Shown here: positions 5,596 through 54,212 of the stretch, one piece after another
Position numbering within the stretch: position 1 is the stretch's first letter
How the letters are laid out: every line of letters begins with the position of its first letter
Assembly (NCBI GenBank): GCA_022530585.1
Contig: CP092821.1
Coordinates: 457,525-521,524 of the forward strand
DNA length: 64,000 nt
From: Candidatus Nealsonbacteria bacterium DGGOD1a
Lineage (GTDB): Bacteria; Patescibacteriota; Minisyncoccia; Minisyncoccales; UBA5738
Reading direction: 5' to 3'
Position numbers and translations under genes: made by a program
Notes under the pieces: model-generated
Seen by the model: only the letters and a program-made list of their open reading frames with translations
The model's database searches: none
What the model was told of the DNA's origin: nothing

Positions 5596-5602
5596 AAATT
5601 TT

Positions 5603-7833: not shown

Positions 7834-8180
7834 ATGTTTGATTTCGAAAACCCGGAGGTTACCGCAAATCAAAGGAACTCAACAAGGAGGTTCTTTTATT
7901 TTTATCTGCCAACAAACAAATCGATTCTTATATCCGCGACCAGCTAAAGCGTGCCGCCATCAGCATAACCATCAATATCGCCGAGGGTAGCGGCAAATTC
8001 TCCAAAGCCGACAAGCGAAACTTCTATACTATCTCCCGCGGTTCGGTCTATGAATGTGTTTCCTTAATGGAATTAATCCTGGACGAAAACCAGATCCCCA
8101 AAGAAAGATTTAGCTATTTTTATCAAAAGCTCGAAATCCTTTCTAAAATGATTCTGGGTTTGATAAACAGCCAAAAATGA
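7834..8180 (+). pseudogene. Four-helix-bundle protein (23S rRNA intervening-sequence protein family), apparently frameshifted near codon 9
   Basis: ATG 7834 gives MFDFENPEV then runs out of frame. The -1 frame from 7860 reads YRKSKELNKEVLLFLSANKQIDSYIRDQLKRAAISITINIAEGSGKFSKADKRNFYTISRGSVYECVSLMELIL...SQK* (stop 8178-8180), typical of the family. Confidence 0.5.
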
Positions 8181-21499: not shown

Positions 21500-24130
21500 T
21501 CACCAAAGGCTTTTTTGCAGTTCGGAGATTAAGCGGGTGATCGCTTCAATCAATAATTTTTTTGTTTCTTCGATTTTGGCCAAAATTTCCGCGCGGGATA
21601 ATTTTGGCGACGCGCCGAATCTTTCCTCGCTATCCTCGGGGACGGTATCTGTTTCGGCGGCGACGCTTTCCGAATAAACGCATTTTCCGCCGGAACAAGC
21701 CGTCGCGCAGGTACAAGTGTCTTGCCATTGGGGGATTGAAAAACAGGCGTTGTCCGAACATCCTTGTTTTAATGTTTGGCGCTGGATTTGTTTGCCCGAA
21801 CAGCGATAATTTGATGTCAGTTCGTTATTGCCGCAATTTTGCGCCAGCCCCTCTTGAATGCCGCAAGAATTATACCAATATAAATTTCCATTATCGCATT
21901 TTTGGGTCGTTTGCGGCGCGCAATTCGCAACGCATTCTCCGTCGGAACACGCTTTGCCGGTCTCGCAAGCGCCGCAGTTCACCGTTTTGCCGCAGCCATC
22001 GCTCCATAATCCGCATTTGTAATTGCCCAAACTCGCGCAAGTTTTGGGAAAGCAAACGGTAGAGCAATTATTGTTCAAGCAGGCTTTTCCCGCGGAGCAA
22101 TCGCCGCAGGAAATCGTGCCGCCGCAACCATCGCTTGCCGTGCCGCAACCATAGCCCAAACTCGCGCAAGTCGCCGGAACGCAAATCGTAGAGCATTGTC
22201 CGTTGGAGCAGGTTTGGCCCGAATTGCAACTTCCGCAATTGAGCGTGCCGCCGCAATTATTGCTCCAATAACCGCAATTTTTACCCAAACTCGCGCAAGT
22301 CGCCGGAACGCAAACCGTAGAGCATTGTCCGTTGGAGCAGGTTTGGCCCGAATTGCAACTTCCGCAATTGAGCGTGCCGCCGCAATTATTGTTCCAAGAA
22401 CCGCAATTTTTACCCAAACTCGCGCAAGTCGCCGGAACGCAAACGGCAACGCAATCGCCGTTACTGCAAGTTTTATTTTCTCCGCAAGCGGTTGTCGCGC
22501 TCCATTTCAAACATCCTCCCGAAAGCGCGCAAGTCTGCGTTCCGTTGCCGGAGCATCGCCGGATTCCCGACGACGAACATTCGTTCGCGCAGGAATTTTC
22601 GCTCAAAGAACCATACACCGTTCCCGAAGAAACATCTGTTTTTTCCCGCGACACGGTTGATGAATTGTTAAAATAAATTGACGCGCCGCCGATTGAACTG
22701 TACATATATTGCCCCGCGGTCGGTTCAAAAACGCATCCTTCGCAATGAACCGTGGAATTTTGGGCGATCAATGAATTAAAAGCGGATTTTAGACGCGTTC
22801 CTTCGATGGTCAATGAGCTGGCTTGATTGGCATAAACCGCGACGCCGGCGTTGATCAAGCCTCCTCTTAAAATAACCGGTATCGGTTCTTGCTCGATCCA
22901 GACCGCGTGATTTTTTGAAGCCGTATTCGTTGTTATTGAATCTATTTCCAATATGATTTGGCCGCGGTCGGCCAGCGAATAGGGTGAATTGTGGTTGTTT
23001 TTGATGTAAACCGCTCCGATAAGTCCGAGGTTTGAGATATTGGTATCGATCTTTAGATTTTTTATCGTGATGCCGCCCGCGCCGGGATATTCCTCGTTGC
23101 CGATCTTCAGTATTCCATTATTGATTTCGGCGCCGTCAATCGCCAGATCAAGTTTGTGATCGCCCACATTGACAATTTGCAATGCCACGGTTCCGGAAGC
23201 GATGGTTCCGTCGTTGGCGAATTTCAAACGGCCGGCTTTGATTTTTTCCACATCGTCAAAAACCAATCCCGCTTGGCGATTGTCGTGGCTGTAGATGTTG
23301 TCCAAATAGGCGTATGCTTCCCAGCCGCTGCCGTTGTTTCCCAAATACATTCCCGTGTTCGGAGAATTTTTTAATTCAATATTAAAAAATTTGCCGCCGG
23401 TTCTTTCGCCGCCCGTGAGAATCAGACCCGCGCCGTCATACCAAAAAGGCGATTGCGCATCTTTGTTGCCGTCCAGCGTTATGTTGGCCAAAGTGAACGC
23501 CGAATAGCCAAGCCCCAAACCGTTGCTGGCGAAAATGATCAGCGCCTGATGGCCGGAATAGTATTGGTTGTCGCCCAATTTTAAAACGGTCTGGCCCATG
23601 CCGGCGCCGTAAATATGGATATTTTTCCCTCTCAATGACAGAGCGGTGTAATAATGCGCTTCCGATCCGGAAAGAACATTGTTGATTGGAACATTTTGGT
23701 CGGCGCGCAAACCGTCATAGGTGCCGGTGCCGATGTATAGCGATCCGTTGTCCGGCGTCGCGGCAATCGCGTTGCGGATGACGGCGGTATAGTCGGCACC
23801 CGACGAGATCGTGCTCCCGGCGCTGTTCTTCGCGGTTGCCGTGTTTCCGGATTTGGAGATGGTAACATCATAAACCGACGGCAGGGGAGGCTGGCCGTTG
23901 ACGCACGCGCCATTCACGCATGCCTGGCCGGCGGCGCACCGCGCGCTGTCGTCGGCCCAATGGTTGGCCAAATTTCCGCCGCTTCCCAATGTTTGCCGGC
24001 AAACCCGGCATCCTTGGATCTGTCCGGCCGCGCCGCAATTATAGGAATCGGCGTTTGCCGAATTTGAAAAACCGAAAACCAGCCAGATTCCGGCAACAAT
24101 CGCGCCCAAAAGAAATTTTTTGTTTTTCAT
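21500..24130 (-). CDS. Secreted protein: N-terminal Cys knot, right-handed parallel beta-helix domain, four C-terminal 43-aa Cys-rich repeats and a C-terminal helix
   Basis: Signal peptide MKNKKFLLGAIVAGIWLVFGFSNSANA. Beta-helix-type repeats (NIHIYGAGMGQTVLKLG, ITLDGNKD, YSHDNRQAGLVF). Repeats CVPATCASLGKNCG.W.NNCGGTLNCGSCNSGQTCSNGQCSTV. ATG 24130 is preferred over TTG 24136. Confidence 0.7.
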   Translation of the reverse strand: MKNKKFLLGAIVAGIWLVFGFSNSANADSYNCGAAGQIQGCRVCRQTLGSGGNLANHWADDSARCAAGQACVNGACVNGQPPLPSVYDVTISKSGNTATAKNSAGSTISSGADYTAVIRNAIAATPDNGSLYIGTGTYDGLRADQNVPINNVLSGSEAHYYTALSLRGKNIHIYGAGMGQTVLKLGDNQYYSGHQALIIFASNGLGLGYSAFTLANITLDGNKDAQSPFWYDGAGLILTGGERTGGKFFNIELKNSPNTGMYLGNNGSGWEAYAYLDNIYSHDNRQAGLVFDDVEKIKAGRLKFANDGTIASGTVALQIVNVGDHKLDLAIDGAEINNGILKIGNEEYPGAGGITIKNLKIDTNISNLGLIGAVYIKNNHNSPYSLADRGQIILEIDSITTNTASKNHAVWIEQEPIPVILRGGLINAGVAVYANQASSLTIEGTRLKSAFNSLIAQNSTVHCEGCVFEPTAGQYMYSSIGGASIYFNNSSTVSREKTDVSSGTVYGSLSENSCANECSSSGIRRCSGNGTQTCALSGGCLKWSATTACGENKTCSNGDCVAVCVPATCASLGKNCGSWNNNCGGTLNCGSCNSGQTCSNGQCSTVCVPATCASLGKNCGYWSNNCGGTLNCGSCNSGQTCSNGQCSTICVPATCASLGYGCGTASDGCGGTISCGDCSAGKACLNNNCSTVCFPKTCASLGNYKCGLWSDGCGKTVNCGACETGKACSDGECVANCAPQTTQKCDNGNLYWYNSCGIQEGLAQNCGNNELTSNYRCSGKQIQRQTLKQGCSDNACFSIPQWQDTCTCATACSGGKCVYSESVAAETDTVPEDSEERFGASPKLSRAEILAKIEETKKLLIEAITRLISELQKSLW
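22156..22413. repeat. Two near-identical 129-bp tandem units (43-aa Cys-rich repeat), flanked by diverged copies (~21900-22460)
   Basis: Units 22156-22284 and 22285-22413 differ at only a few positions. The period was measured from recurring cccaaactcgcgcaagtcgccggaacgcaaa. Confidence 0.85.
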
Positions 24131-24206
24131 AATCAATTAAATAACCATTGAATAATATAATTTTAATTATAGAACAGATATTGCCTTCCAACAATAAAGA
24201 CATAAG

Positions 24207-26289: not shown

Positions 26290-26880
26290 TTCACCCTGTC
26301 GGTCTTGCCGCAGGGAACAACTTAAGGGGGTGGTTTGGTAGGGGGATATCCCCCTACCATCACGCGCGAAAGCGCGTCCGTGTTACAATAAGCCAATATG
26401 GAGCAAGAAAAGCGGGATATCTGGCGTTGGTATCACAATGTTTCCGAATGTTATTACCACATCCAGATTACGGTCAAATATCGCAAAGCATTACTGAACG
26501 AAAAGGTGATTGCCGCAATTGTCGAGAGCCTGAAAGGATTTATGGAACGGTACGCCATTGAGATCAGCCATGTGGGATTCGACCAAGACCACGCCCATAT
26601 TCTGGCAAGATTCCTGCCGAAGTATTCCGGCGGCCAGGTTATCAAAATAATAAAAAGCATTACCGCGCGCGAGGTGTTCCGGCAAGTTCCCGAAATTAAA
26701 AAAGAACTCTGGGGTGGAGAGTTCTGGACAGACGGCTATTATATCGCTACGATCAGCGCACGCGGTAATAGGAAAGTTATTGAGCGATACATTCAAAACC
26801 AAGGCAGACCAAAAGACGTGAGCCAGTTACGATTGTTTGAATTGTAGCTGCGAACGCCCTGCGGTCTTGCCGCAGGGTCA
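26290..26880. mobile_element. IS200/IS605-family minimal insertion sequence (tnpA only) with subterminal hairpins
   Basis: Hairpin ccctgtcggtcttgccgcaggg (26295-26316) to the left and ccctgcggtcttgccgcaggg (26857-26877) to the right of tnpA. An extra palindrome ggtagggggatatccccctacc at 26338-26359. Confidence 0.7.
26398..26847 (+). CDS. tnpA: IS200-type Y1 (HUH) transposase TnpA
   Basis: 149 aa. HUH motif DHAHILARF and catalytic-Tyr region FWTDGYYIATISARG..VIERYIQNQ. Typical IS200 size. Confidence 0.85.
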   Translation: MEQEKRDIWRWYHNVSECYYHIQITVKYRKALLNEKVIAAIVESLKGFMERYAIEISHVGFDQDHAHILARFLPKYSGGQVIKIIKSITAREVFRQVPEIKKELWGGEFWTDGYYIATISARGNRKVIERYIQNQGRPKDVSQLRLFEL

Positions 26881-30556: not shown

Positions 30557-30960
30557 ATGGGTGTTGGCGGTTCGCAAACAAAAAGGGCGGGGATGTTCTA
30601 TTCCGTCGATCTGGTTTCAACCGGCAATATCAGACAATAAAAAATCGCGTTGCGCAAGATTGACGGGATTTTTGGATTTGTTAGGATGATAGGACTCTAG
30701 AGGGGGGTGCGATAAATTAAAAATTGGCGGCTGTCATTTTGGATGTAATTTTGATACAATAGATAGGTAATCGATACGATAATTCTCTTGTCCGCGGAGG
30801 AGGACAAGAAACTAGACAATGTTCGCATTTTCTGCAAACGCGAATTGCCAATGTGTTCAAAAAAATGGAACCCAGACACGGTTTTTGTTTTGAAAACCCG
30901 CGCCTGCGTTCCATTTTTTTGTACATTGATTATCGTTGTTTCGCAATCAGCCAACGCATT

Positions 30961-32586
30961 ATGAAAAAAATAATCGCCTTATTTTTAGCTTTCGCGACCA
31001 TGTGCCAGACATCCGGCCCGGCGATTTTCGCGTCCGAGGACAATGCCAGTTCAACTGATCCGATTGCGAATGAGGAAAATGATTCCGGTTTGGGCCAGCC
31101 AAATTTATTGGAGATTGCCGGCGGCCAAACAAGCGAAATTTTACCCGCGCCGGATCCGGCGCGGATTGAAAGCGCTTCAACCACGGAAATTGAAATCGCG
31201 CCGCCGACCGTGAACGAAAATAGCTCTTCAACCGAGATATCGGCCGGCGCTTCAAGCGCCGAGGCAATGGGAAACGCGACCACGACCGCGGAAGCGCGCG
31301 CGGATGGGGAGGCGGATGCCACGACCACGAGCGAGACTGAAATTGGCGATGCGACAACAACAATGGATGCCGCCGCGACAACCGATGGCGCCGGTGTTGT
31401 TCAAGAAGCCGCGACTTCCACAACCGCGACCTCCACGGTTGCGACCTCCACAATAGATACCGGTGGAATTTCAACAGAGAATGCCACAAGCGAAGCGGAT
31501 TTGATTTTCGCGCCGGCCGCGCCGCGAATGGCGATGTTGGCGGTTTGGCAAATGGCCGGCGGCGGCTTTGACGATGATCCGGCGGCCGGCGCGCAGTTCG
31601 CGCCTTCGGGCGAGTATCGGGTTTCCCGGAACATACAAATGTGCGGAATCCTCGCGAATGGCAATCCGGATGAATCGGACGGCGTTTACGGGCAAATGTT
31701 TTATCCTGTCGGGGCCGGGTTTGCGCCCGGGGACGGCCAAGGCCGGCAAGGTTGCGGCCAGGTGGTCGGGCCGGCTTGCAAAATGGAAAAATTGTCGAGC
31801 GAAGCGAGTTTTGATTTATTCTGCGAAAAAATTCAAAAAAACAATACGAATTTGCCGTTGTTCGATTCCGGATTGAGCTATGTCGATTTATGCGCCGCGG
31901 ACGGCAAATTGCTGGCGCGAACCGCTTCGGTCTATTGTTGCGAGCAAGAGCTGGCCTATGATGATGCCGCCGGGGAGTATGACGCGGGAGTGATTGCCAA
32001 AGGGGCCGCCGGCGACTACAGCAATACGCTGTTATCCAAGTTCGCTTACTTGCCGCTGTCAAAGATTGATATCGGCTTTAATAATGTTTATTACGGAACG
32101 GTTCAAGAAGGCGTGGAGGCGGTAACGGATGAAACCATCACCCGCGCCGCGGTGCGCAATGTCGGCAATGTGCCGGCGAAAGTTTCGTTGTGGCAGGATG
32201 ACATGGGATTGGGCCAAACCGCCGGCGTTTACAATATCCGCTATGGGGCGCGGTTGAGCGGGATTGGCGCGCCGTGGACATACTACAAGCCGTTTGAAAC
32301 GATTTCGATGTCCGACGCGCTCGCTCCGGGGCAATCCGCGGATATGGAATTTTCGGTCAAGGTTTTGAATTTCCCGGAAACGGCCGGAGAAAGCAAAAGC
32401 GATTACCGCGGCCAAATGAAAATCGACGCGGTATTCGCGCCCGCCAATTATCAATGCCAATCGCCGGAACCGAATGAAGCTCAAACGATATCGGCCGCCG
32501 CTCCCGTTTCAGGTTTGAATGGCGCGGAAGTTAAGCCCGAAACCGATCTGCCGGAAGCCGCAACCACGACCGCGGTTGAGCATTGA
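30961..32586 (+). CDS. Secreted surface protein A: signal peptide, ~200-aa Thr/Ala/Glu/Ser-rich linker, ~330-aa domain paralogous to protein B; C-terminal LPEAA motif
   Basis: MKKIIALFLAFATMCQTSGPAIFA signal. Shares with 34579..35826 the conserved Cys pattern, LAYDDAAGEYD (B: LSYEAAAGTYE), AAVRNVGNVPAKV (B: ATVRNIGNVELDM) and NIRYGARLSG (B: NIRYMGRVGS). Confidence 0.65.
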   Translation: MKKIIALFLAFATMCQTSGPAIFASEDNASSTDPIANEENDSGLGQPNLLEIAGGQTSEILPAPDPARIESASTTEIEIAPPTVNENSSSTEISAGASSAEAMGNATTTAEARADGEADATTTSETEIGDATTTMDAAATTDGAGVVQEAATSTTATSTVATSTIDTGGISTENATSEADLIFAPAAPRMAMLAVWQMAGGGFDDDPAAGAQFAPSGEYRVSRNIQMCGILANGNPDESDGVYGQMFYPVGAGFAPGDGQGRQGCGQVVGPACKMEKLSSEASFDLFCEKIQKNNTNLPLFDSGLSYVDLCAADGKLLARTASVYCCEQELAYDDAAGEYDAGVIAKGAAGDYSNTLLSKFAYLPLSKIDIGFNNVYYGTVQEGVEAVTDETITRAAVRNVGNVPAKVSLWQDDMGLGQTAGVYNIRYGARLSGIGAPWTYYKPFETISMSDALAPGQSADMEFSVKVLNFPETAGESKSDYRGQMKIDAVFAPANYQCQSPEPNEAQTISAAAPVSGLNGAEVKPETDLPEAATTTAVEH

Positions 32587-32672
32587 ACTTTGAGCGCGGT
32601 ATATTAGACAATCACGATTGCCGCCGCAAAATACGCGGCGGAGTGGTTGGATAAAATTAATAAATTCTATTT

Positions 32673-33020
32673 ATGGTTATCAAAGCAATAAGAGAAAAAT
32701 TAACGGCCGCGCGCATAAAAGCGGTGGTTATGGAGTTTGGAAAAAAACTGGCGGCGGAGAACATTCCGGTGAAGCAGATGATTTTGTTCGGGTCGTACGC
32801 GAAAAACAATCCGCATATTGACAGCGATATTGATGTGGCGGTGATTTTGAAGGATGACAGCGGCATCGAGCGGGGCGAAATTGACAAGATTACCTGGTGG
32901 GCCAAGCAAATCAATGTGAAATTGGAGCCGCATATTTTGAGCGAAGGCGATTTCAACAACCGTTGGCTGTCGTTGCCCGCGGAAATAAAAAAAACGGGGA
33001 TCAAAATAGCAGAACGATGA
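32673..33020 (+). CDS. Minimal nucleotidyltransferase (MNT/MntA-like, Pol-beta superfamily)
   Basis: 115 aa. LFGSYAKNNPHIDSDIDVAVIL is the GS...DxD NTase signature. Confidence 0.8.
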   Translation: MVIKAIREKLTAARIKAVVMEFGKKLAAENIPVKQMILFGSYAKNNPHIDSDIDVAVILKDDSGIERGEIDKITWWAKQINVKLEPHILSEGDFNNRWLSLPAEIKKTGIKIAER

Positions 33021-33052
33021 CGATGAACGATGACAATGAACGATGACGATAA
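33012..33052. repeat. Short array of gaacgatga-type 9-mers upstream of the four-helix-bundle gene
   Basis: gaacgatgacgatgaacgatgacaatgaacgatgacgataac. The same 9-mer family is seen at 33476-33572. Confidence 0.7.
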
Positions 33053-33092
33053 CTAATAAAAAAAGATAAATAATAAAAATGGACATAAATTC

Positions 33093-33473
33093 ATGGAAAC
33101 AAATAGTAACTATGGGTTTAAATTCAGAAATTGGGATATTTATAACGATGCGCGAAAATTTAGAAATTTAATTTATGAAACAACAAATAAATTCCCAAAA
33201 GATGAAAGATTCGGATTGACAGACCAATTAAGAAGGGCTTCGGTGTCGATAATACTTAATATCGCGGAAGGCGCGAATAAAAACACCGATAAAGACCGCC
33301 GCGTCTATATCAATCGAGCGCATTGTTCATTGGATGAAGTAGTCGCTGGAATAGATTGTGCCGTTGATGAGAGTTTTATTGACGAAACCACCCGGATTAA
33401 AATTTTGGAAAACGCCAGCAGTTTGGCAAAGCGCTTGAGAGCATTCACGAATTATTTGCACCGTGAACCATAA
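33093..33473 (+). CDS. Four-helix-bundle protein (23S rRNA intervening-sequence protein family)
   Basis: 126 aa. FRNWDIYNDARKFRNLIYETTNKFPKDERFGLTDQLRRASVSIILNIAEGANK...YINRAHCSLDEV matches the family pattern (w..a..l...iy.lt..fPk.E.fgL..QlrRaavSi..NIAEG). Confidence 0.8.
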   Translation: METNSNYGFKFRNWDIYNDARKFRNLIYETTNKFPKDERFGLTDQLRRASVSIILNIAEGANKNTDKDRRVYINRAHCSLDEVVAGIDCAVDESFIDETTRIKILENASSLAKRLRAFTNYLHREP

Positions 33474-33475
33474 AC

Positions 33476-33572
33476 AGTGAACGATGACGATGAACGATGA
33501 ACTATGACGATGAACGATGAACTATGACGATGAACGATGACAATGAACGATGAACGATGAACGATGACGATG
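33476..33572. repeat. Array of ~11 degenerate 9-mers (gaacgatga / gaactatga / gacgatga)
   Basis: Read directly. It is the reverse complement of the tcatagttc 9-mers that build the array at 33590-33830, so the two arrays form a large imperfect inverted repeat centred near 33580. Confidence 0.85.
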
Positions 33573-33589
33573 ATTTTGCCCACATTTTG

Positions 33590-33830
33590 TCAAAGTTCAT
33601 AGTCCATAGTTCATAGTCCGCATTCCCTGTCATAGTTCAAAGTTCATAGTTCATAGTTCAAAGTTCATAGTCCGCATTCCCTGTCATAGTTCAAAGTTCA
33701 TAGTTCATAGTTCAAAGTTCATAGTCCGCATTCCCTGTCATAGTTCAAAGTTCATAGTTCATAGTTCAAAGTTCATAGTCCGCATTCCCTGTCATAGTTC
33801 ATAGTTCATAGTTCAAAGATCATAGTCCGT
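33590..33830. repeat. Tandem array: three perfect 54-bp units (33630-33683, 33684-33737, 33738-33791) plus partial flanking units
   Basis: The unit is tcatagttcaaagttcatagttcatagttcaaagttcatagtccgcattccctg. Stop codons occur in all frames and there are no unique spacers. Confidence 0.9.
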
Positions 33831-34437
33831 TGAGTAGAGTGCAGATGGCGTTTCCCGGGAGGAATGCCGCCACCCGCACTTTATAAAAAAGTAGGCGAAA
33901 CGGATTGTCGAAATCACGCCGCCGAAATTTAATGAAGAAGGCGCGAATCCGCATTTTGCATTTGTATCTGCATTTCAAGGGTCTATCCCTTGCGTAATCG
34001 CAAGGGTTAGACCCTGGTAAAAGTATTTGCATTTGCATTTCCCGGATTCGCGAGACAAGGTCGACCGGGACTTATCCGAAATTCCGTGTCCGATATTGCG
34101 AAAGGGTTCTTGTTGAGGTGATCCTCAACAGGCCTGTCGAGGACTGCTGATCAAGCGCCAAGACTCAATATCGGGAACAGGAAAAGTAGGATATTTAACA
34201 AGTTTGACGGGACTTTAAAACCCGCCAAAATAACAATTTCCCCACCTATCAGCATTCAATCACTTTTGTATTTGGGGTCTATCCCCTGCGTAGCTTTAGC
34301 GGAGCAGGGGTTAGACCCCTGCAACAGCGCCCGCATTCGCATTGCATTTGCACCCGCATTTGAGGCCGTTCCCCGGTAGTAGCCGAGGCGCGACCTCGCC
34401 CAACTGCGCTTGCATCGCATTTGCGAGTATATACTTA

Positions 34438-34490
34438 GTATGTATTTAAATATGTATTTAAATAAGTATTTAAATACTTATTTAAATCAG
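34438..34490. repeat. AT-rich 12-bp tandem repeat (x4) in the upstream region of surface protein B
   Basis: tatgtatttaaa tatgtatttaaa taagtatttaaa tacttatttaaa, followed at 34512-34545 by gttaacgattaaagattaacgattaacgatt. Confidence 0.8.
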
Positions 34491-34578
34491 CGCTTGGAAT
34501 TTCGTTAATAGTTAACGATTAAAGATTAACGATTAACGATTGAATCCTGACAGGTGGGGAAATAAAAAAAGAAAACAT

Positions 34579-35826
34579 ATGAAGACATTGAAAAAATATG
34601 TAGCGATGTTGGCCCTGGCCAGCTTGGTCCTCGGACCCGCCTCTGCTTTGGCAGATGTAGTAACTTCGTTTACTGCTTCCAGCGGTGCCGCTCAACCAAC
34701 ATTTAGAGTTGTTGCGAAATGGGAAACTACTGGCACGACTTTGGCTGATTATTGGATTGATGACGATTTGAATACCACTGGTATTCAAGTTAATCCTCCG
34801 TTGGTGAAAGCGGGGACAAAAGCAGTGACTTATTGTGCAGTAGTTCAATTCCCCGGTAAGATGACTCAGGTATCCAAAGTTTATATGGATTTGAAGTATG
34901 CTGGAACTGCCAATCAAGGAACACAATATAATCAGTGTGGCGTAACTGTTGGGGATGAGCTTGAACTTACCAAAGTAACCGCCCCGACAGGTGAATTACC
35001 TTACAATGTTTTTTGCAAGAGCTTGAACCCGAATGCGGGTGCAGGGATTTATAAAGGTAATGATATCGTAACTTTCTTGGATCCCACAACGGGCCATGAT
35101 TGGGCGACTCTTTGTACTGATGGCGTGGAGGGTTCATTGCCGAAAGGCGACGCCGCATTGTATTGTGGCACGAGAAACTTGTCCTATGAAGCGGCGGCTG
35201 GTACTTACGAGGTCCAAGTACACGGGGTGGCCAATGGTTTGAACTCAAACTTCTTGCTCAATAATTATCTTTATGTGCCCCAAGCTGGTTTTCAAATTGA
35301 TTTTAATAAAATCAATTATGGAACTGCTACTTGGACTGATCCTACGGTAATTGGTATTACTGGTGGACATTATAATTGGGCTAGCTCTTTCGTGAAATGG
35401 AATTCGATTTCTGGCGATACCAATTTTACCTCAAGCGTTGGCACCAATAACGCAACTGTTAGAAATATTGGTAATGTGGAGTTAGATATGCAAGTAGCGC
35501 AGGACTATATGAACACTGAGTTAACTGGCGGTATGGATAATATTCGTTATATGGGTAGAGTGGGCAGTCTTGATGGATATTGGCAACAGTATGGTCCGAA
35601 TGCCAATATGACCAATCCTAATTGGACAAAATTGACTCGCTATATCGAATTATCCAATAAGGATGAAATGGATTTTGGCGTGGCAATTACGAAATTTGAT
35701 CAAGGAGTGACTTATAGCGGCACGATGAAGCTTATGGGTACACAGCATGATTTTGCAAAATGTCCCACTAGGATTTCATTGCCTGGCGAAGCAGACCCTG
35801 CTCAACAGACTTCAATTCCTTTGTAG
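34579..35826 (+). CDS. Secreted surface protein B (paralog of A without the linker); candidate fibre/pilin-like subunit; C-terminal LPGEA motif
   Basis: MKTLKKYVAMLALASLVLGPASALA signal (TTG 34540 is an alternative start). Paralogy to A as listed for that feature. LSYEAAAGTYEV resembles the Cna-B/SpaA E-box (Y.l.E..AP.GY). VRNIGNV is a beta-sandwich motif. Confidence 0.65.
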   Translation: MKTLKKYVAMLALASLVLGPASALADVVTSFTASSGAAQPTFRVVAKWETTGTTLADYWIDDDLNTTGIQVNPPLVKAGTKAVTYCAVVQFPGKMTQVSKVYMDLKYAGTANQGTQYNQCGVTVGDELELTKVTAPTGELPYNVFCKSLNPNAGAGIYKGNDIVTFLDPTTGHDWATLCTDGVEGSLPKGDAALYCGTRNLSYEAAAGTYEVQVHGVANGLNSNFLLNNYLYVPQAGFQIDFNKINYGTATWTDPTVIGITGGHYNWASSFVKWNSISGDTNFTSSVGTNNATVRNIGNVELDMQVAQDYMNTELTGGMDNIRYMGRVGSLDGYWQQYGPNANMTNPNWTKLTRYIELSNKDEMDFGVAITKFDQGVTYSGTMKLMGTQHDFAKCPTRISLPGEADPAQQTSIPL

Positions 35827-39356: not shown

Positions 39357-39437
39357 CCCTGTTGAGGTTTGACCTCAACAGGGGTTTTATATCCCGTTAT
39401 CCCCGTTGAGGTCCCCGTTGAGGTCAAACCTCAACAG
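39357..39437. repeat. REP pair (palindromic ctgttgaggtNNgacctcaacag units) with ~20-nt spacer
   Basis: ccctgttgaggtttgacctcaacagggg ... ccccgttgaggtcaaacctcaacag aagttgatattaaa. The same REP-spacer-REP-'aagttgatattaaa' layout precedes the RAYT gene at 41846-41937 and its fragment at 41124-41220. Confidence 0.8.
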
Positions 39438-41845: not shown

Positions 41846-41914
41846 CCCTGTTGAGGTCAAACCTCAACAGGGTTTTTGTTTCCCCGTATTCCTGTTGAGG
41901 TTTGACCTCAACAG
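41846..41914. repeat. REP pair immediately upstream of the RAYT gene
   Basis: ccctgttgaggtcaaacctcaacaggg (41846-41873) and cctgttgaggtttgacctcaacag (41891-41914). Confidence 0.85.
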
Positions 41915-41937
41915 AAGTTGATATTAAAATTAAACAT

Positions 41938-42672
41938 ATGAGAAAAGAACCGTTTTTTGTTGGCGATTATGTTCATGTTTTTAATCGCGGCAACCGCAAA
42001 ATGGATATTGTGCGCGATAATATCGACCGTTGGCGTTTCCTTTCGATTTTAAGATATTTCAATGACCAGCGGCCGTCTCTGAATATTTTGCGCGAACTCC
42101 TCAATACGCGCCTGTTGAGGTTTGACCTCAACAGCGCCGAAAAGAGCTATTGTTTTGATTGGCCGAAAAATTGGCCGCCGCAAAAACCTCTCGTGAGGAT
42201 TGTTTCATATGCTTTAATGCCGAATCATTATCATTTGCTTCTGCAAGAAATTGATGACGGCGGTATTTCCGTATTTATGAAAAAACTCGGCAATGGATTT
42301 ACCGGATATGTCAATATCAAATACGATGAGGTGGGTAAAATTTTTCAAGGGTCATACAAAGCGAAAACCGTGAAAAACGAGAATTATTTGCAGTATCTGG
42401 ATGCTTATATCCAAGTTTTGAATCCGTTTGAGCTTTTGTCGCCGGAATTCGTAATCAAGTCGCCGCGAAAAGCGTTTTTGGAAGTTGCCGCCAACCCGTT
42501 TTCCAGCTTGGGAGAGTCTCTTGGATTGAATAATTTGCAAATCGTGGACAGAAAATCAATTGAGCGAGAAATCGGCCTGACGAGCGACCGCGAAAAATAT
42601 CTGAAATTGATCAATGATATTATGGCCGCCGGCGGTTTAAAAAAAATCCTCGGCGAGTTGCTCTTCGATTGA
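41938..42672 (+). CDS. REP-associated tyrosine transposase (RAYT; IS200/Y1-like HUH enzyme)
   Basis: 244 aa from ATG 41938. HUH motif YALMPNHYHLLLQE and C-terminal Tyr region NENYLQYLDAYIQVLNP. Flanked on both sides by its cognate REPs and carrying one internally (42111-42134). Confidence 0.8.
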   Translation: MRKEPFFVGDYVHVFNRGNRKMDIVRDNIDRWRFLSILRYFNDQRPSLNILRELLNTRLLRFDLNSAEKSYCFDWPKNWPPQKPLVRIVSYALMPNHYHLLLQEIDDGGISVFMKKLGNGFTGYVNIKYDEVGKIFQGSYKAKTVKNENYLQYLDAYIQVLNPFELLSPEFVIKSPRKAFLEVAANPFSSLGESLGLNNLQIVDRKSIEREIGLTSDREKYLKLINDIMAAGGLKKILGELLFD

Positions 42673-42673
42673 T

Positions 42674-42696
42674 CTGTTGAGGTCAAACCTCAACAG
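42674..42696. repeat. REP unit directly after the RAYT stop codon
   Basis: ctgttgaggtcaaacctcaacag. Confidence 0.85.
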
Positions 42697-42742
42697 GCAT
42701 TTTGTTTGACCTGAAGGCGGTTTTTGTATAGGATGACATAAT

Positions 42743-43613: not shown

Positions 43614-44102
43614 ATGGCAAACAATAATATCCAAAATAATCAAAATATCAGCAATAAAGAATTGCTCGATTTTTTGATAAAAAAGTTTGACGGCATCGAT
43701 CAAAAGTTTGTCGCAATCGATCACAAGTTTGACGCAATCGATCAAAAGTTTCTTGGCATCGATAAAAGGTTTGACGCAATCGATCAAAAGTTTGTCGCAA
43801 TCGATCAAAAGTTTCTTGGCATCGATAAACAATTTGATGTTTTTAAAAATGAATATGTCGCGGATTATAAGGGTTTGGCGGATTTAATGATGAATCAATT
43901 TGAAAAGTTTTACGAAAAGCTTGACCAGAAAGCCGATAAATCGGATATTGACGCAGTTTTGACGCGGATCACGCAATTAAGCGACAAGGTTGACGATTAT
44001 CGCGCCGATCAGATTGGTTTGAAGCGCCAAGTTGACAAACACGAAAAATGGCATCGCCAAACCGCAACCAAAATCGGATTGAAATTAATTCCCGAAGCGT
44101 AA
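43614..44102 (+). CDS. Small coiled-coil protein, paralog of 29892..30275 (conserved C-terminal DDYRADQIGLKRQVDKHEKWH)
   Basis: 162 aa. Seven 7-aa repeats (IDQKFVA/IDHKFDA/IDQKFLG/IDKRFDA...). The C-terminal block is near-identical at DNA level to 30166-30230. Confidence 0.6.
   Translation: MANNNIQNNQNISNKELLDFLIKKFDGIDQKFVAIDHKFDAIDQKFLGIDKRFDAIDQKFVAIDQKFLGIDKQFDVFKNEYVADYKGLADLMMNQFEKFYEKLDQKADKSDIDAVLTRITQLSDKVDDYRADQIGLKRQVDKHEKWHRQTATKIGLKLIPEA
43683..43839. repeat. 21-bp tandem repeat (~7.5 units) inside the coiled-coil gene
   Basis: The unit is atcgatcaaaagtttgtcgca. A 63-bp higher-order periodicity is visible. Confidence 0.85.
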
Positions 44103-44529: not shown

Positions 44530-47500
44530 GCTAGCCAAGGTAAGTAAAATTATAGGCACATGGTGGATGCCTTGGGACTGGGAGGCGATGAAGGACGCAG
44601 CCTGTCTGCGATAATCCCGGGGGAGGTGACAAGCAACCTTTGAACCCGGGGTCTCCGAATGGGGAAACCCTTTCCGGCGTTGAACCGGAAAATCCCATAG
44701 CGCAAGCTAGGGAAGCGAACCTGCGGAAGGGAAACATCTCAGTACGCAGAGGAAAAGAAAAAAATCCTCGCTTCGGCGAGGGACATTCTCTTAGTAGCGG
44801 CGAGCGAAAAGAGAAGAGCTCAAACCAGTTTGTATTTCGCTTATGTTCATCAAAATTGGTGGATATAAGTGAAATACAGGCTGGGGTTATAAGGTAAGGA
44901 TAATCCCGAGCGTAAGCGAGGGACAAAGCGCATCAATATGCAATTTGGTTAACCCAACTACCCTGGAAAGGGAGGCCATAGCGGGTAATAGCCCCGTAAG
45001 TGAAAATCATTGCAAGCTTTGAATCTTTATTCTTGAGTACCGCGGGAAACGAAAGTCCTGCGGGAATTCGGCTGGACTATACAGCCAAAGCTAAATACTA
45101 CCCAGTCACCGATAGTGCACAAGTACCGTGAGGGAAAGGTTAAAAGTAGGGGGGTGACCCCGGTGAAATAGATCCTGAAACCATGATGCTTACAAAGACT
45201 CGGAGTGCTGAGGCGCAAGCCGAAGTATGACGGGGTGCTTTTTGTAGAACGAGCCAACGAGTTTAATTTATCAGTTAGTCTAAGCGTCTCTGACGCGAAG
45301 GCATAGGGAAACCAAGTCTTAATAGGGCGCAATCCCGAGCGTAAGCGAGGGAGTACTGATGGGTTAAGACCCGAAGCCAAGGCGAGCTTGCCATGACCAG
45401 GTTGAATCCCGCCGAAAGGCGGGAGGAGGACCGAACCGGTTGACTGTGCAAAATCTTCGGATGAGTCGTGGTAAGAAGTGAAAAGCTAATCGAGCTTGGT
45501 AATAGCTGGTTCTCTCCGATATAACTTTAGGGTTAGCGTCCTGCGCTAATGGTTTTGGAGGTAGAGCACTGAAAGAAATTCCGTGGCGAAAGTCAGGTAT
45601 TTCTATCAAACTCCGAATGCCGGAACCATTGCAGGGCAGTAAGACTACGGGCGCTAAGGTCCGTGGTCGTAAGGGGGAAAGCCCATGACCTCAGTCTAAG
45701 GTCCCCAAATCAGGCTAAGTGCAAAACAAGGAAGTGAGATTCCTCTGATAGCTAGGAGGTTAGCTCAGAAGCAGCTATCCTTTAAAAAGTGCGTAACAGC
45801 TTACTAGCTAAGGAGTTTTGCGCCGTAGATTAACGGGGCTCAAGCCTGATACCGAAGACGAGGGTGTCCCGCATTTTTGCGGGGCGCGGTAGGAGAGCGT
45901 TCCCATTGCAGTGAAGCGGAACCGTGAGGTTTCGTGGAGCGTTGGGAAGTGAGAATGTTGGCATGAGTAACCACAATGCATGTGAGATCCATGCACACCG
46001 AAAACCCAAGGGTTCCGTGACAATGGTGATCAGTCACGGGTTAGGCGGTCCTAAGGCACAGCCGAGAGGCGCAGCTGATGGACATCTGGTTAATATTCCA
46101 GTCCTTCCGTTTCTTGCTGAGAAAGTGACGAAGTTTAGTACTCTGGGCGGGTTATTGGATTCCCGTTGCCAATTTGATTGTTCCGGGCGCAAGCTCGGGA
46201 TGAAAGAATTGTCGAGATGTTTCCCGCAAGGGAGATAGATTCAGACGAGCAAGCTTCCCAGAAAAACCTTTCAAGGGCTATCAAGAAAGGGAAACCGTAC
46301 CGTAAACCGACACAGGTGGGTTGGCGTCAAATTGCCAAGGTGAACGAGTGAAAGTTCGTGAAGGAACTAGGCAAACAAGTATGCGTACCTTAGGTATATG
46401 CATTCCCTTCATAGCAATATGGAGGGCGCAGCGAAGGATTCTCAGGCGGCTGTTTACCAAAAACACAGGTCCCTGCTAAACTCGTAAGAGGAAATATAGG
46501 GGCTGAGACCTGACCAGTGCCCGTGTGTTAAAGCTGAGGGTGGATTTGATCGCAAGATTGGATTTGCTCATCGGTCTAAGCTACGGGTGAACGTCCGCGG
46601 TAACTCTGACCGTGTTAAAGTAGCGTAGTCCCTTGTCGCGTAAGTTGCGACCCGCATGAAAGGTATAACGATCTGAGAACTGTCTCCACGAATTACTCGG
46701 TGAAAATGTAATGGAAGTGAAGATACTTCCTACCTGCGACTAGACGGAAAGACCCCGGAAGCTTTACTGTAGGGTGATATTGAGTTTTGAATTTTGATGC
46801 GTAGAATAGTGGTGAGGATTTGAGGTCTCGTTTTCGGACGGGGCTGATCCGACAGTGAAATAGCCATCTTTAAAGTTCATTATTCTAATTTGAAAAATGA
46901 CAGTGTCACTTGGGCAGTTTAAGTGGGGCGCTTGCCTCCTAAAATGTAACGGAGGCGTTTAAAGGTCAGCTAAGCACGGATGGAAATCGTGCATGTTGCG
47001 TAAAGGCATAAGCTGGCTTAACTGCAAGACGGATGTGTCGCGCAGATGCGAAAGCAGAACTTAGTGAACCGATGCTGGTTATTAGAATCGGCAGAGATTA
47101 TCAAACAAAAGTTACTCCGGGGATAACAGGCTAGTACGACCCACGAGTCCATATCAACGGTCGTGTTCGGCACCTCGATGTCGGCTCATCATAGCGCGGG
47201 GGTGGAGAAGCTCCCAAGCGTCCGGCTGTTCGCCGGTTAAAATGGTACGTGAGCTGGGTTCAGACCGTCGCGAGACAGGTCGGTCCCTATCTATCGCAGG
47301 CGTTTGAGTTTTGAGGAGAGTCGACCCTAGTACGAGAGGACCGGGTTGAACTGACCTCTGGTGTGCCAGTTGTTCCGCCAGGAGCATTGCTGGGTAGCTA
47401 AGTCGGGAACGGATAAGAGCTGAAAGCATCTAAGCTCGAAGCCTCCTCCAAGATTATAACTCTTAGTTTCCTCCAAGAACAGGAGGTTGATAGGCTGCAG

Positions 47501-47566
47501 GTGTAAGCGCGGCAACGCGTTCAGCCAAGCAGTACTAATAAACGATCAAAATTGCCTTGGTTAGCA
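44530..47566 (+). rRNA. rrl: 23S ribosomal RNA (~3.04 kb; boundaries +/-10 nt)
   Basis: 5' ggtggatgccttgggactgggaggcgatgaaggacg. GTPase centre. PTC region ggataacaggct...ggcacctcgatgtcggctcatc...gagctgggttcagaccgtcg. The ends pair (taattgctagccaagg with ccttggttagcaatta). Confidence 0.95.
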
Positions 47567-47651
47567 ATTAATGACCTTAATTTAATTGCAAAAAGATTGG
47601 AATTGGAATAAAATAACTAACACAACAAAACAATACGCGATTGCGCGCATT

Positions 47652-47760
47652 GTAAGGAAGCTATACCGATGGTGCTCCACCTGTTCCCATGCCGACCACA
47701 GAAGTGAAATCCATCAGGGCCGATGATAGTCCGATCGGGCGAAAGTAGGTAGCTTTCTTA
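47652..47760 (+). rRNA. rrf: 5S ribosomal RNA
   Basis: ccacctgttcccatgccgaccacagaagtgaaat...ccgatgatagt...gaaagtaggt matches the 5S core. Helix I taaggaagct/agctttctta is extended by gcgcgcattg/caatgcgcgc as a processing stem. Confidence 0.85.
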
Positions 47761-47855
47761 CAATGCGCGCAATTTTTTGTTACAAATATGTATTTTTTGC
47801 TATCGCAAAATTTGCATAATCATGATATTTTAAATTGCGAAATGCTTTGTATTTT

Positions 47856-48282: not shown

Positions 48283-48396
48283 ATGAAAATGTTATCACAT
48301 TTTCTTTAGCCGAGGCAGTCTGAGGCGGATGAAAATGTTATCACATTTTCTTTAGCCGAGGCAGTCTGAGGCGGATGAAAATGTTATCACATTTTC
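48283..48396. repeat. 46-bp tandem repeat (2.5 units), each carrying the palindrome gaaaatgttatcacattttc, upstream of mreC
   Basis: Units 48283-48328 and 48329-48374 are identical; a partial unit spans 48375-48396. The unit is atgaaaatgttatcacattttctttagccgaggcagtctgaggcgg. Confidence 0.9.
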
Positions 48397-54128: not shown

Positions 54129-54212
54129 AAATGTCAAAATGTCGATGTATTTTTTATTTTAAATTTTACATTGTCATTTTCCATTTTGATTTTTAAATTT
54201 TGATTTAATGAA
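54085..54212. repeat. AT-rich inverted-repeat element overlapping the lysS 3' end
   Basis: aaaatgtaaatatcaaaaatcaaaatgacaattaaaaatgtcaaaatg...aaattttacattgtcattttccattttgat. The left arm encodes the last residues of LysS (IEIENVNIKNQNDN). Confidence 0.6.

What the first reader, a model, noticed from the sequence alone, without database searches (positions are those of the whole stretch)
32673..33830. Nucleotidyltransferase plus four-helix-bundle pair embedded in 9-mer arrays and a giant inverted repeat (IVS-like architecture outside rRNA)
A minimal NTase (GSYAKN..DSDIDV) is followed 72 nt later by a protein of the four-helix-bundle / '23S rRNA intervening sequence protein' family. This resembles MNT-HEPN-type two-gene modules. 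As far as I recall, this four-helix-bundle family is grouped with HEPN/KNTase_C-type bundles; that needs checking. The second gene is bracketed by arrays of gaacgatga-type 9-mers at 33012-33052 and 33476-33572. Immediately downstream the reverse-complement 9-mers (tcatagttc) form a 240-bp array containing three perfect 54-bp units. The gene therefore sits next to a very long imperfect hairpin, like the stem that holds such genes inside 23S rRNA intervening sequences, although here it is far from the rRNA. A second, frameshifted family member (7834-8180) also lies next to long inverted repeats.
Basis: partly seen in the sequence, partly recalled or inferred. Interest (0 to 1): 0.55.

Follow-up and report, generated by a model that had tools for sequence, protein, structure and literature searches.

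The report
rRNA-intervening-sequence-type gene cassette outside rRNA
A small four-helix-bundle gene of the kind normally found inside 23S rRNA "intervening sequences" sits here between ordinary genes, bracketed by the same inverted arrays of 7-base repeats as true rRNA intervening sequences; the nucleotidyltransferase next to it is only the leftover half of an unrelated toxin-antitoxin pair.

Summary
The sequence features are real. They are an NTase ORF (32673-33020), a PF05635/TIGR02436 four-helix-bundle (4HB) ORF (33093-33473), GAACGATGA-type arrays (33012-33052 and 33478-33573) and a 237-nt reverse-complement array (33590-33826, 54-nt unit x4.4). Independent assemblies of Ca. Nealsonbacteria DGGOD1a carry them too.

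The proposed "MNT-HEPN-like pair" is refuted. Six of seven NTase relatives examined carry a true HEPN gene overlapping their upstream end. The window keeps only the last ~25 codons of that HEPN. No NTase relative lies near 31 other 4HB loci, and only one (the syntenic L059) among 80 more. The 4HB folds like XCC0516/Avd, not like HEPN.

The "IVS-like architecture outside rRNA" is supported, and it is general. In two independent sets (25 and 54 loci from several phyla), 4HB genes have complementary short-repeat arrays on both sides far more often than other ORFs (p~1e-14 and 3e-13). A genuine Azospirillum 23S IVS shows the same arms.

The cassette sits co-directionally inside operons, and the protein is under purifying selection.

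Most likely mechanism (inferred): the arms pair in the read-through transcript, and RNase III processes the resulting stem. A DNA-level role is not excluded.

The parts
32617..32691 (+). 3' remnant (about 25 codons, ..IAAAKYAAEWLDKINKFYLWLSKQ*) of a deleted HEPN toxin gene. It overlaps the NTase start exactly as intact HEPN genes do in relatives.
   Evidence: DNA and protein match to the end of the intact HEPN gene of the syntenic locus L059 (922-1326) and to HEPN alignment A2.
32673..33020 (+). Minimal nucleotidyltransferase (MNT/MntA-like, GS..DxD). It is the orphaned antitoxin half of a HEPN-MNT pair and not a partner of the 4HB gene. Its last 3 codons and its stop (AER*) come from the first repeat unit.
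   Evidence: Pfam NTP_transf_2/Polbeta; NCBIfam MntA 38 bits, below the cut-off of 60; PADLOC PDC-S09 2.9e-13. Six of seven relatives examined have an upstream HEPN. Relatives end ..GIKI*/GIEV.*.
33012..33052 (+). Upstream arm: array of alternating 7- and 6-nt units (GAACGAT GACGAT) x3.
   Evidence: TRF; exact 9-mer positions. It pairs with the far end of the 33590-33826 array in the fold of 32990-33840.
33053..33092 (+). A-rich spacer between the upstream arm and the start codon.
   Evidence: Sequence. No promoter signal above shuffles.
33093..33473 (+). Four-helix-bundle protein gene of the 23S-rRNA-IVS-protein family (Avd-like fold). It is intact and under purifying selection.
   Evidence: PF05635 1.3e-26, TIGR02436 1.7e-24. 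AlphaFold2 pLDDT 93.6. Foldseek top hits 2GSC, 2RLD, 4DWL. dN/dS about 0.05-0.10 between relatives at orthologous or syntenic sites.
33478..33573 (+). Proximal downstream array, in the same orientation as the upstream arm (GAACGAT/GACGAT/GAACTAT units).
   Evidence: TRF. Forms a hairpin with the start of the inverted array.
33574..33589 (+). Loop between the proximal array and the inverted array.
   Evidence: Fold.
33590..33826 (+). Downstream arm: reverse-complement array (TCATAGT/TCAAAGT units) amplified as a 54-nt higher-order unit x4.4.
   Evidence: TRF 96%; perfect 54-nt periodicity over 33611-33800. 76-79% complementary to 33507-33567. One unit fewer in assembly L003.
7834..8180 (+). Second, frameshifted copy of the 4HB gene, between tRNA-Trp and the next gene. 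Its arms have decayed.
   Evidence: tblastn 29-40% identity. Frameshift, and flank test not above shuffles.

Best explanation
WHAT IT IS (shown). The locus is a cassette of the rRNA-intervening-sequence (IVS) type, lying between protein genes instead of inside rRNA. A conserved four-helix-bundle (Avd/XCC0516-like) ORF sits between an upstream array of 6-7-nt units and a downstream array of the reverse-complement units. Here an extra same-orientation array lies just after the stop codon, and the distal arm is amplified 4.4-fold. The cassette predates the NTase: it occupies the same site in related Patescibacteria that have no NTase. A HEPN-MNT toxin-antitoxin pair was later inserted directly upstream (intact in L059), and in this genome it lost its HEPN. 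So the NTase/4HB adjacency is accidental.

HOW IT MOST LIKELY WORKS (inferred). The cassette has no detectable promoter of its own. It sits co-directionally a few tens of bases behind the upstream gene and is read through from it. In that transcript the arms pair into a long imperfect stem with the ORF in the loop. As in true 23S IVSs, RNase III cuts the stem and separates the 4HB message from the host transcript. This lets the cassette live inside operons or rRNA without harming them, and it sets the level of 4HB expression. Because the arms are arrays of short units, they can pair in many registers. They are renewed by slippage, so unit sequence and copy number drift quickly while complementarity is kept.

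The biochemical role of the 4HB protein remains unknown. The protein is selected for.
For: Family and fold.

Arms present and complementary.

The architecture is general.
- Inverted short-repeat arrays flank 4HB genes in Patescibacteria, Peregrinibacteria, Poribacteria, Ratteibacteria, Syntrophaceae and cyanobacteria.
- The best ungapped up-versus-down complementarity has median 14 for 25 4HB genes against 7 for 137 other ORFs (p=1e-14). In a second set it is 12 for 54 genes against 7 for 106 ORFs (p=3e-13).
- The two top-scoring 'other' ORFs in the first set proved to be further, divergent 4HB genes.

Unit sequence changes while complementarity is kept. At the same chromosomal site the window has GAACGAT, L007 has GAACAAT/GAACTAT, and L008/L059 have TTAATCT.

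A genuine 23S rRNA IVS has the same arms. In the Azospirillum lipoferum AZO_p2 IVS (L139, inside the LSU rRNA), a 4HB ORF is flanked by GGACAGA/GGACGGA units and their complement.

Published work on the Coxiella 23S IVS (PMC4990558):
- tandem heptamers (GACAGAT) lie directly upstream of the S23p ATG;
- their copy number varies between strains;
- the 5' RNase III cut is at the first repeat, and RNase III excises the IVS in vitro.

Operon embedding: the upstream neighbour is co-directional in 60 of 63 loci, against a 78% baseline (p=2e-4). Median gaps are 44 and 37 nt. No promoter or terminator signal above shuffles lies between the NTase and the 4HB.

Protein under selection: dN/dS about 0.05-0.10, with dS saturated.

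NTase history.
Against: No transcript data exist for this locus. Neither the stem nor the RNase III cut is shown here.

Arm alignments show no excess of G:U over A:C mismatches (111 vs 101, p=0.54). So there is no strand-specific RNA signature, and a DNA-level role fits equally well.

The arms are only about 73-80% complementary.

In the window the array immediately after the stop codon is in direct, not inverted, orientation. A Pseudanabaena cassette has direct arrays on both sides.

ORF-less hairpins built from similar arrays fill other intergenic spacers of this window. So hairpins are not exclusive to 4HB genes.

In Coxiella the protein appears not to be made (PMC4990558). It is therefore unclear how processing would serve expression.
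Confidence: 0.6

Rival explanations
1. The NTase and the 4HB protein form a two-gene MNT-HEPN-like (toxin-antitoxin or defence) module, with the 4HB acting as a HEPN-type partner.
For: The two genes are adjacent, on the same strand and 72 nt apart. The NTase weakly matches MntA and the PADLOC family PDC-S09. One further relative (L059) also has an NTase next to a 4HB gene.
Against: L059 has the intact HEPN upstream of its NTase, so the module there is HEPN-NTase. Six of seven NTase relatives examined carry an overlapping PF05168 HEPN upstream. The window keeps a HEPN 3' remnant. No NTase relative occurs in the other 31 genome loci carrying a 4HB relative, and only one in 80 metagenome loci. 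4HB versus HEPN: hhalign probability 0.45%, and no HEPN among PDB sequence or fold hits. L007 and L008 have the cassette at the same site without an NTase.
Confidence: 0.03
2. The cassette is a DNA-level mobile or duplicative element. The inverted arrays act as terminal repeats, or as ssDNA hairpins, recognised by an enzyme supplied in trans (for example a Y1/RAYT-type transposase, two of which are encoded in this window). ORF-less array hairpins would be its miniature derivatives.
For: One 4HB subfamily with the same GAACGAT/GTTCATC arms occupies at least five different contexts in Syntrophaceae. The same unit recurs across phyla, in this CPR window and in Deltaproteobacteria. L031 carries an ORF-less internal-deletion copy in tandem with a full copy. 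Cassettes sit between cas genes (cmr2/cmr3, cas6/cas4). There is no G:U bias. Y1_Tnp genes and REP-like palindromes are present in the window.
Against: No recombinase lies inside the cassette, and no target-site duplication was recognised. Cassettes stay at orthologous sites while synonymous sites saturate: window/L007/L008/L059, L009/L010, L013/L018. No copies were found on viral contigs. The bias towards the strand of the upstream gene is not expected for a pure DNA transposon.
Confidence: 0.2
3. The arrays are binding sites for the 4HB pentamer itself, on RNA or ssDNA. The protein would autoregulate or protect its own transcript and act in trans on ORF-less arrays elsewhere in the genome.
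For: The fold is that of Avd, which binds RNA within the DGR ribonucleoprotein (8UBE). The protein is under strong purifying selection. Arrays commonly hold 3-6 units, and Geobacter class-3 sites hold five heptamers. TGAC/GAAC-type cores recur in 32 of 75 upstream arms.
Against: Closely related proteins have different units (window versus L008/L059, 68-69% identity). Distant ones (about 40% identity) share the same unit. That pattern argues against tight protein-unit co-specificity. No binding data exist.
Confidence: 0.15
4. The arrays are simply the generic intergenic hairpins of this AT-rich CPR genome (terminators or spacers), and their position next to the 4HB gene is incidental.
For: At least five ORF-less hairpins built from 7-mer-like units fill the spacers between co-directional genes in this window. 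Many other short arrays are present.
Against: Within the same loci, 4HB genes are bracketed far more strongly than other ORFs in two independent sets. The association holds in phyla with quite different genome composition and in a true rRNA IVS.
Confidence: 0.07

Closest known systems
23S rRNA intervening sequences carrying an S23p/four-helix-bundle ORF (Leptospira, Coxiella burnetii, Azospirillum and others)
   Same: Same protein family (PF05635/TIGR02436). The ORF lies in the loop of a stem formed by terminal inverted repeats. The arms are made of tandem 7-nt units directly upstream of the ATG (Coxiella GACAGAT, PMC4990558; Azospirillum GGACAGA/GGACGGA). Copy number varies between strains or assemblies.
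   Different: The cassette lies 11 kb from the 23S gene, between protein-coding genes and inside an mRNA operon. The arms are much longer (40 + 96 + 237 nt against a 28-bp stem), with a 54-nt higher-order amplification and an extra same-orientation array. RNase III excision has not been shown here.
DGR accessory protein Avd
   Same: Four-helix-bundle fold (Foldseek 4DWL/8UBE, TM about 0.75). Weak HMM matches to bAvd and DivGenRetAVD.
   Different: The score is far below the Avd model cut-off (28 vs 80 bits). No reverse-transcriptase Pfam family is recorded for any called gene within 10 kb. A template/variable repeat pair was not searched for.
HEPN-MNT (HepT/MntA) type VII toxin-antitoxin modules
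   Same: The NTase belongs to this kind of module. Its relatives have an overlapping HEPN gene upstream.
   Different: In the window the HEPN is deleted except for its 3' end. The 4HB protein is not a HEPN domain and is not a conserved neighbour.
Short tandemly repeated repetitive (STRR) heptamers of heterocystous cyanobacteria, and the paired hepta-/octanucleotide arrays of Geobacter metallireducens (PMC2700814)
   Same: Tandem 7-nt units in intergenic spacers, often as inverted pairs about 100 nt apart between genes of one operon. In Nostoc, Aulosira and Trichormus plasmids such arrays bracket 4HB genes.
   Different: Those repeats were described without any link to the 4HB gene family. The Geobacter pairs were interpreted as sites for a global regulator (IHF/HU), and the class-3 pair whose coordinates were read is too close together to hold an ORF.

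Membership tests
23S rRNA IVS protein / four-helix-bundle protein (PF05635, TIGR02436) | Scores above the curated HMM cut-offs | tested here: met
   PF05635 93.3 bits (cut-off 33.8); TIGR02436 86.1 bits (cut-off 24).
23S rRNA IVS protein / four-helix-bundle protein (PF05635, TIGR02436) | Four-helix up-and-down bundle like XCC0516 (2GSC) and BT_0352 (2RLD) | tested here: met
   AlphaFold2 pLDDT 93.6 with four long helices. Foldseek 2GSC E=1.3e-6, TM 0.84-0.93.
23S rRNA IVS protein / four-helix-bundle protein (PF05635, TIGR02436) | Conserved motif R-x3-S-x3-N-x2-E (GxxRxxxSxxxNxxE, per PMC3936711) | tested here: met
   RRASVSIILNIAEG in the window protein. R48, S52 and E59 are invariant in 30 relatives, and N56 is nearly invariant (at least 90%).
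23S rRNA IVS protein / four-helix-bundle protein (PF05635, TIGR02436) | Homopentameric assembly | not tested
   Only a monomer model was made.
rRNA intervening sequence (IVS) element | Inserted in a helix of the 23S (or 16S) rRNA gene | tested here: not met
   The 23S gene is at 44539-47558. The cassette lies between protein-coding genes at 33012-33826.
rRNA intervening sequence (IVS) element | ORF enclosed by terminal inverted repeats able to form a stem | tested here: met
   Fold of 32990-33840 (z = -5.25): the upstream arm pairs with the distal arm. Inverted repeats are 76-79% complementary. This is a prediction only.
rRNA intervening sequence (IVS) element | Tandem short (about 7-nt) repeats forming the arm directly upstream of the ORF | tested here: met
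   33012-33052. The same is seen in the Azospirillum IVS and the Coxiella IVS (PMC4990558).
rRNA intervening sequence (IVS) element | Excision from the precursor by RNase III | not testable with these tools
   Needs transcript mapping or an in-vitro cleavage assay.
MNT-HEPN (MntA/HepT) two-gene module | Minimal NTase with the GS...DxD catalytic motif | tested here: met
   GSYAKN..DSDIDV; Pfam NTP_transf_2. The score is below the NCBIfam MntA equivalog cut-off (38 vs 60 bits).
MNT-HEPN (MntA/HepT) two-gene module | An adjacent, intact HEPN-domain partner | tested here: not met
   Only a 25-codon 3' remnant is left (32617-32691). The 4HB is not HEPN-like.
MNT-HEPN (MntA/HepT) two-gene module | Conserved pairing of the two genes in relatives (NTase with 4HB) | tested here: not met
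   None of the other 31 genome loci and 1 of 80 metagenome loci carrying a 4HB relative has an NTase relative. Six of seven NTase relatives pair with HEPN.
Diversity-generating retroelement (Avd component) | Neighbouring reverse transcriptase and template/variable repeats; score above the Avd model cut-off | tested here: not met
   DivGenRetAVD 28.2 bits against a cut-off of 80. No RT Pfam family is recorded among the called genes within +/-10 kb. Template/variable repeats were not searched for.

The most novel reading that the evidence does not exclude
The IVS-protein gene plus inverted arrays of short tandem repeats would be one widespread, cross-phylum, operon-embedded genetic element. ORF-less heptamer hairpins would be its derived or non-autonomous forms: cyanobacterial STRRs, the paired 'global regulator sites' of Geobacter, and the intergenic hairpins of this CPR genome. 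The Avd-like pentamer would act directly on the repeat arrays, by binding them, processing them or propagating them. That would tie together three long-unexplained observations and give the IVS protein a substrate.
Probability: 0.15. Interest if true: 0.8.

Novelty: new variant of a known kind. Interest (0 to 1): 0.55.

Why it matters
The 23S-IVS protein family is large: 14,291 clusters at 50% identity match this profile at E<=1e-3. It has had no known function since the 1990s, and outside rRNA it is annotated simply as a stand-alone 'four helix bundle protein'.

These genes carry IVS-type arms wherever they sit: in operons, between cas genes and in rRNA. The arms keep their complementarity while their sequence turns over. 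This redefines the unit of study as the cassette (ORF plus arms). It predicts RNase III processing sites inside mRNAs of CPR bacteria, Syntrophaceae and cyanobacteria. It also suggests a concrete substrate to test for the protein.

There are two practical cautions. The MTMTMT-type N-termini of many database entries appear to be translated repeat arrays, to judge from the arrays running into the start codons. And the adjacency of an NTase to a small helical protein is not evidence for a toxin-antitoxin or defence pair.

Tried and rejected
- Rfam, both at gathering thresholds on the whole window and in E-value mode on 32500-34700, finds no family for the arrays or for the conserved non-coding stretch downstream. 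Only chance miRNA/snoRNA-like hairpin matches appear.
- PADLOC has no defence-family match for the 4HB protein.
- The promoter/terminator scan gives nothing above shuffles.
- The G:U versus A:C mismatch asymmetry was used to test for selection on the sense RNA. The result was null (111 vs 101), so it cannot separate an RNA role from a DNA role.
- A viral-contig scan for 4HB relatives found none.
- The second 4HB copy (7834-8180) was tested for bracketing arms and did not exceed shuffles.
- The conserved stretch at 33849-34200 was considered as a possible tmRNA, SRP RNA or RNase P RNA, because of local resemblances. This was rejected for lack of any ARAGORN or Rfam support.
- A CRISPR-like array was considered and rejected: the units are 6-7 nt with no spacers.
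- A DGR was considered and rejected: no RT Pfam family is recorded nearby, and the Avd model score is below its cut-off.
- Literature searches found no paper linking 4HB genes outside rRNA to flanking repeat arrays. The library is incomplete, so an earlier description cannot be excluded.
Full report
ORGANISM AND OBSERVATION

The window comes from Candidatus Nealsonbacteria bacterium DGGOD1a (Patescibacteria/CPR). Both proteins of the finding are 100% identical to entries from that genome.

- A 115-aa minimal nucleotidyltransferase at 32673-33020.
- 72 nt later, a 126-aa protein of the 23S-rRNA-IVS / four-helix-bundle family at 33093-33473.
- Arrays of GAACGATGA-type units at 33012-33052 and 33478-33573.
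- A 237-nt array of the near reverse complement (TCATAGTTC) at 33590-33826. It is organised as a 54-nt unit x4.4, with about 3.5 perfect units.

All exact copies of both 9-mers in the 64 kb lie in these arrays. One-mismatch matches exceed every shuffle.

The region folds far better than shuffled controls (z = -4.9 and -5.25). In the fold of the longer segment, the upstream array pairs with the far end of the inverted array, so the ORF sits in a loop.

The arrays are not assembly artefacts. Six independent assemblies contain them. Short-read contigs tend to end inside them. One assembly has one 20-nt unit and one 54-nt unit fewer.

The second family member at 7834-8180 is real and frameshifted, but it no longer has significant bracketing repeats.

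THE NTASE IS NOT THE PARTNER OF THE FOUR-HELIX-BUNDLE GENE

I looked at the pairing from both sides.

From the 4HB side:
- None of the other 31 loci carrying a 4HB relative from GTDB species genomes has an NTase relative within 3 kb.
- Only one of 80 metagenome loci has one.

From the NTase side:
- Six of seven relatives examined (57-87% identical) have a canonical PF05168 HEPN gene whose end overlaps the NTase start. P0123/L049 lacks one.

The single exception on the 4HB side, L059, is syntenic with the window and explains its history. L059 reads: secreted protein - intact HEPN - NTase (85% identical) - arrays - 4HB (69%) - arrays - conserved non-coding stretch - next secreted protein.

The window has the same order, but only the last ~25 codons of HEPN remain (32617-32691..KYAAEWLDKINKFYLWLSKQ*). 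They still overlap the NTase start.

Two other syntenic relatives (L007, L008) have the 4HB cassette at this site with no toxin-antitoxin genes at all.

So the cassette came first. A HEPN-MNT pair landed next to it, and in DGGOD1a the toxin half was later deleted.

The NTase's last three codons and its stop (AER*) are supplied by the first repeat unit, whereas relatives end ..GIKI*.

The recalled grouping of this family with HEPN/KNTase_C does not hold up:
- hhalign of the 4HB profile against the HEPN partners gives 0.45% probability.
- A profile search of PDB sequences at E<=10 returns XCC0516 (2GSC) and BT_0352 (2RLD) but no HEPN.
- A confident AlphaFold model (pLDDT 93.6) matches 2GSC, 2RLD and then the DGR protein Avd, with no HEPN in the top 50.

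THE IVS-LIKE ARCHITECTURE IS REAL AND GENERAL

Nearly every relative carries a short array of 6-7-nt units running up to (often into) its start codon, and the reverse-complement array right after its stop. This holds in other Patescibacteria, and in Peregrinibacteria, Poribacteria, Ratteibacteria and Syntrophaceae.

Many database proteins of this family start with MTMTMT... The ATGACN arrays running into the start codons suggest these N-termini are translated arrays.

I scored the best ungapped complementarity between 100 nt upstream and 100 nt downstream of each ORF:
- First set: 25 4HB genes have median 14, against 7 for 137 other ORFs of at least 100 aa in the same loci (Mann-Whitney p = 1e-14).
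- The two highest-scoring 'other' ORFs in that set turned out to be additional, very divergent 4HB genes with their own arms.
- Independent set of 54 non-redundant metagenome loci: 12 versus 7, p = 3e-13.

Flanks are periodic (mostly 7, sometimes 6). The median self-match is 0.48/0.45, against 0.33 in control windows.

Cyanobacterial plasmids show the same thing. Nostoc, Aulosira and Trichormus have CAGGAGT/ACTCCTG arms. Nostoc ATCC 53789 has GGGAAAA/TTTTCCC arms. A Picosynechococcus copy lies between cmr2 and cmr3.

One tblastn hit lies inside a genuine 23S rRNA gene of Azospirillum lipoferum (Rfam LSU positions 926-1661). This is a classical IVS. There the 4HB ORF is flanked by GGACAGA/GGACGGA units and their complement.

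The published analysis of the Coxiella burnetii IVS (PMC4990558) reports:
- tandem GACAGAT heptamers directly upstream of the S23p start;
- strain-to-strain variation in copy number;
- a 28-bp terminal stem;
- RNase III excision in vitro, with the 5' cut at the first repeat.

The window's cassette therefore has the anatomy of a true IVS, but it sits in an mRNA context.

EVOLUTIONARY BEHAVIOUR

Cassettes are stable at orthologous sites while synonymous sites saturate. This applies to window/L007/L008/L059; L009/L010 upstream of rplU; and L013/L018 between holA and rpsT. For the pairs where dS could be estimated, dS > 2 and dN/dS is about 0.05-0.10. So the protein is under purifying selection.

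At the same site the repeat unit differs between lineages: GAACGAT, GAACAAT/GAACTAT, TTAATCT. Yet the two arms stay complementary. That points to selection on pairing, or to concerted turnover of both arms, rather than selection on a fixed sequence.

Conversely, a Syntrophaceae subfamily only about 40% identical to the window protein has the same GAACGAT/GTTCATC unit. It occupies at least five different contexts. One locus carries an ORF-less internal-deletion copy in tandem with a full copy. So duplication or transfer does occur.

The cassette is embedded in operons. The upstream neighbour is on the same strand in 60 of 63 loci, against a 78% baseline (p = 2e-4). Median gaps to the neighbours are 44 and 37 nt, so the arms fill the spacers.

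In the window, no promoter or terminator signal above shuffles separates the NTase from the 4HB.

MECHANISM

The best-supported reading is as follows. The cassette is transcribed by read-through from the gene upstream. Its arms pair, and the stem is an RNase III substrate as in rRNA IVSs.

Arms made of short tandem units can pair in many registers. They change by slippage, which fits the copy-number difference between assemblies and the 54-nt amplification.

This step is inferred, not shown. A test for an RNA signature (G:U over A:C mismatches in arm alignments) was null (111 vs 101). The arms are only about 73-80% complementary. The array just after the stop codon here is in direct orientation, and a Pseudanabaena cassette has direct arrays on both sides.

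A DNA-level role therefore remains open. The arms could be ends of a mobilisable element, perhaps served by the Y1 transposases encoded nearby, or they could be binding sites for the Avd-like pentamer.

The window also contains at least five ORF-less hairpins built from similar units. Each fills the spacer between co-directional genes. Geobacter metallireducens has comparable paired arrays, annotated in 2009 as regulator sites (PMC2700814). Whether these are relatives of the cassette is the most interesting open question.

NOVELTY

IVS elements with this ORF are known in rRNA, and the protein family is known to be common outside rRNA.

I found no paper that links the non-rRNA copies to IVS-type arms of short tandem repeats, or that connects them to STRR-like arrays. 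The paper library is incomplete.

I therefore rate this as a new variant of a known kind.

Noticed in passing
window 33849-33945 and 34059-34200: Two conserved non-coding segments lie between the cassette and the next gene. They are shared with L059, L008 and L007/L057, with lineage-specific repeat hairpins inserted between them. A small stem around a GUCGAA loop covaries (GAUU/AAUC, GGG/CCC, GGC/GCC), and a long-range pairing CCGAUAUUG/CAAUAUCGG is visible. There is no Rfam or ARAGORN match. This could be a structured 5' leader of the secreted-protein gene at 34540, or an unknown small RNA.
   Followed up: partly
window 2753-2872, 5457-5596, 7121-7226, 54089-54206, 55505-55621: Long imperfect ORF-less hairpins (arms 42-68 nt, 71-83% complementary) built from AAAATGT/AAATTGA-like 7-mers. 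Each fills the whole spacer between two co-directional genes.
   Followed up: partly
window 7174-7205 and 7503-7534: The small rpmG (L33) gene at 7238-7399 is bracketed by 75% complementary repeat arms (TTTTACA / ATTGGCA-type). So bracketing is not strictly limited to 4HB genes in this genome.
   Followed up: no
window 39359-39437, 41888-41915, 42110-42134, 42673-42700 (also 34110-34140): Copies of a REP-like palindrome, CTGTTGAGGTTTGACCTCAACAG, flank a Y1_Tnp (IS200/RAYT-like) gene at about 41902-42672. A second Y1_Tnp gene lies at 26398-26847. A related GAGGTTTGACCTC palindrome occurs in L049.
   Followed up: no
L031 2791-2937 versus 2921-3422: An ORF-less miniature of the 4HB cassette (5' arm plus first codons, then 3' arm) lies in tandem with the full copy. 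Both are bounded by GACCTGATNAATAAGGG repeats, and a similar motif precedes the cassette in L030.
   Followed up: partly
L137 (Pseudanabaena galeata plasmid, between cas6 and cas4): A 4HB gene is flanked by (AAAAGCT)x13 upstream and (AAAAGCC)x10 downstream. These arrays are direct rather than inverted. This shows, as does the window's proximal array, that same-orientation arrays also occur.
   Followed up: no
window 44539-47761: The 23S and 5S rRNA genes have no 16S gene in the 44 kb upstream, so the rRNA genes are unlinked. The 23S is about 95 nt longer than the model and has an extended hairpin at 44825-44884 that is not made of 7-mer arrays. The 5S gene is itself bracketed by a 24-nt, 96% inverted repeat (47640-47663 / 47750-47773).
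   Followed up: no
window 22025-22444: A 129-nt tandem repeat (3.3 copies; the last 2.2 are 98% identical) lies inside the large minus-strand ORF at 21500-24136.
   Followed up: no
window 48283-48396 and 43681-43837: A perfect 46-nt tandem repeat (2.5 copies), each copy holding a palindrome ATGAAAATGTTATCACATTTTC, lies downstream of the 5S gene. A 21/63-nt repeat (AAAAGTTTGACGCAATCGATC) lies upstream of the 23S gene.
   Followed up: no
window 30853-32586 and 34540-35826: The genes on either side of the cassette region are paralogous Cys-containing secreted proteins (shared motifs such as YCC..L.YDD.AG.Y). The arrangement is conserved in L007, L008 and L059.
   Followed up: no
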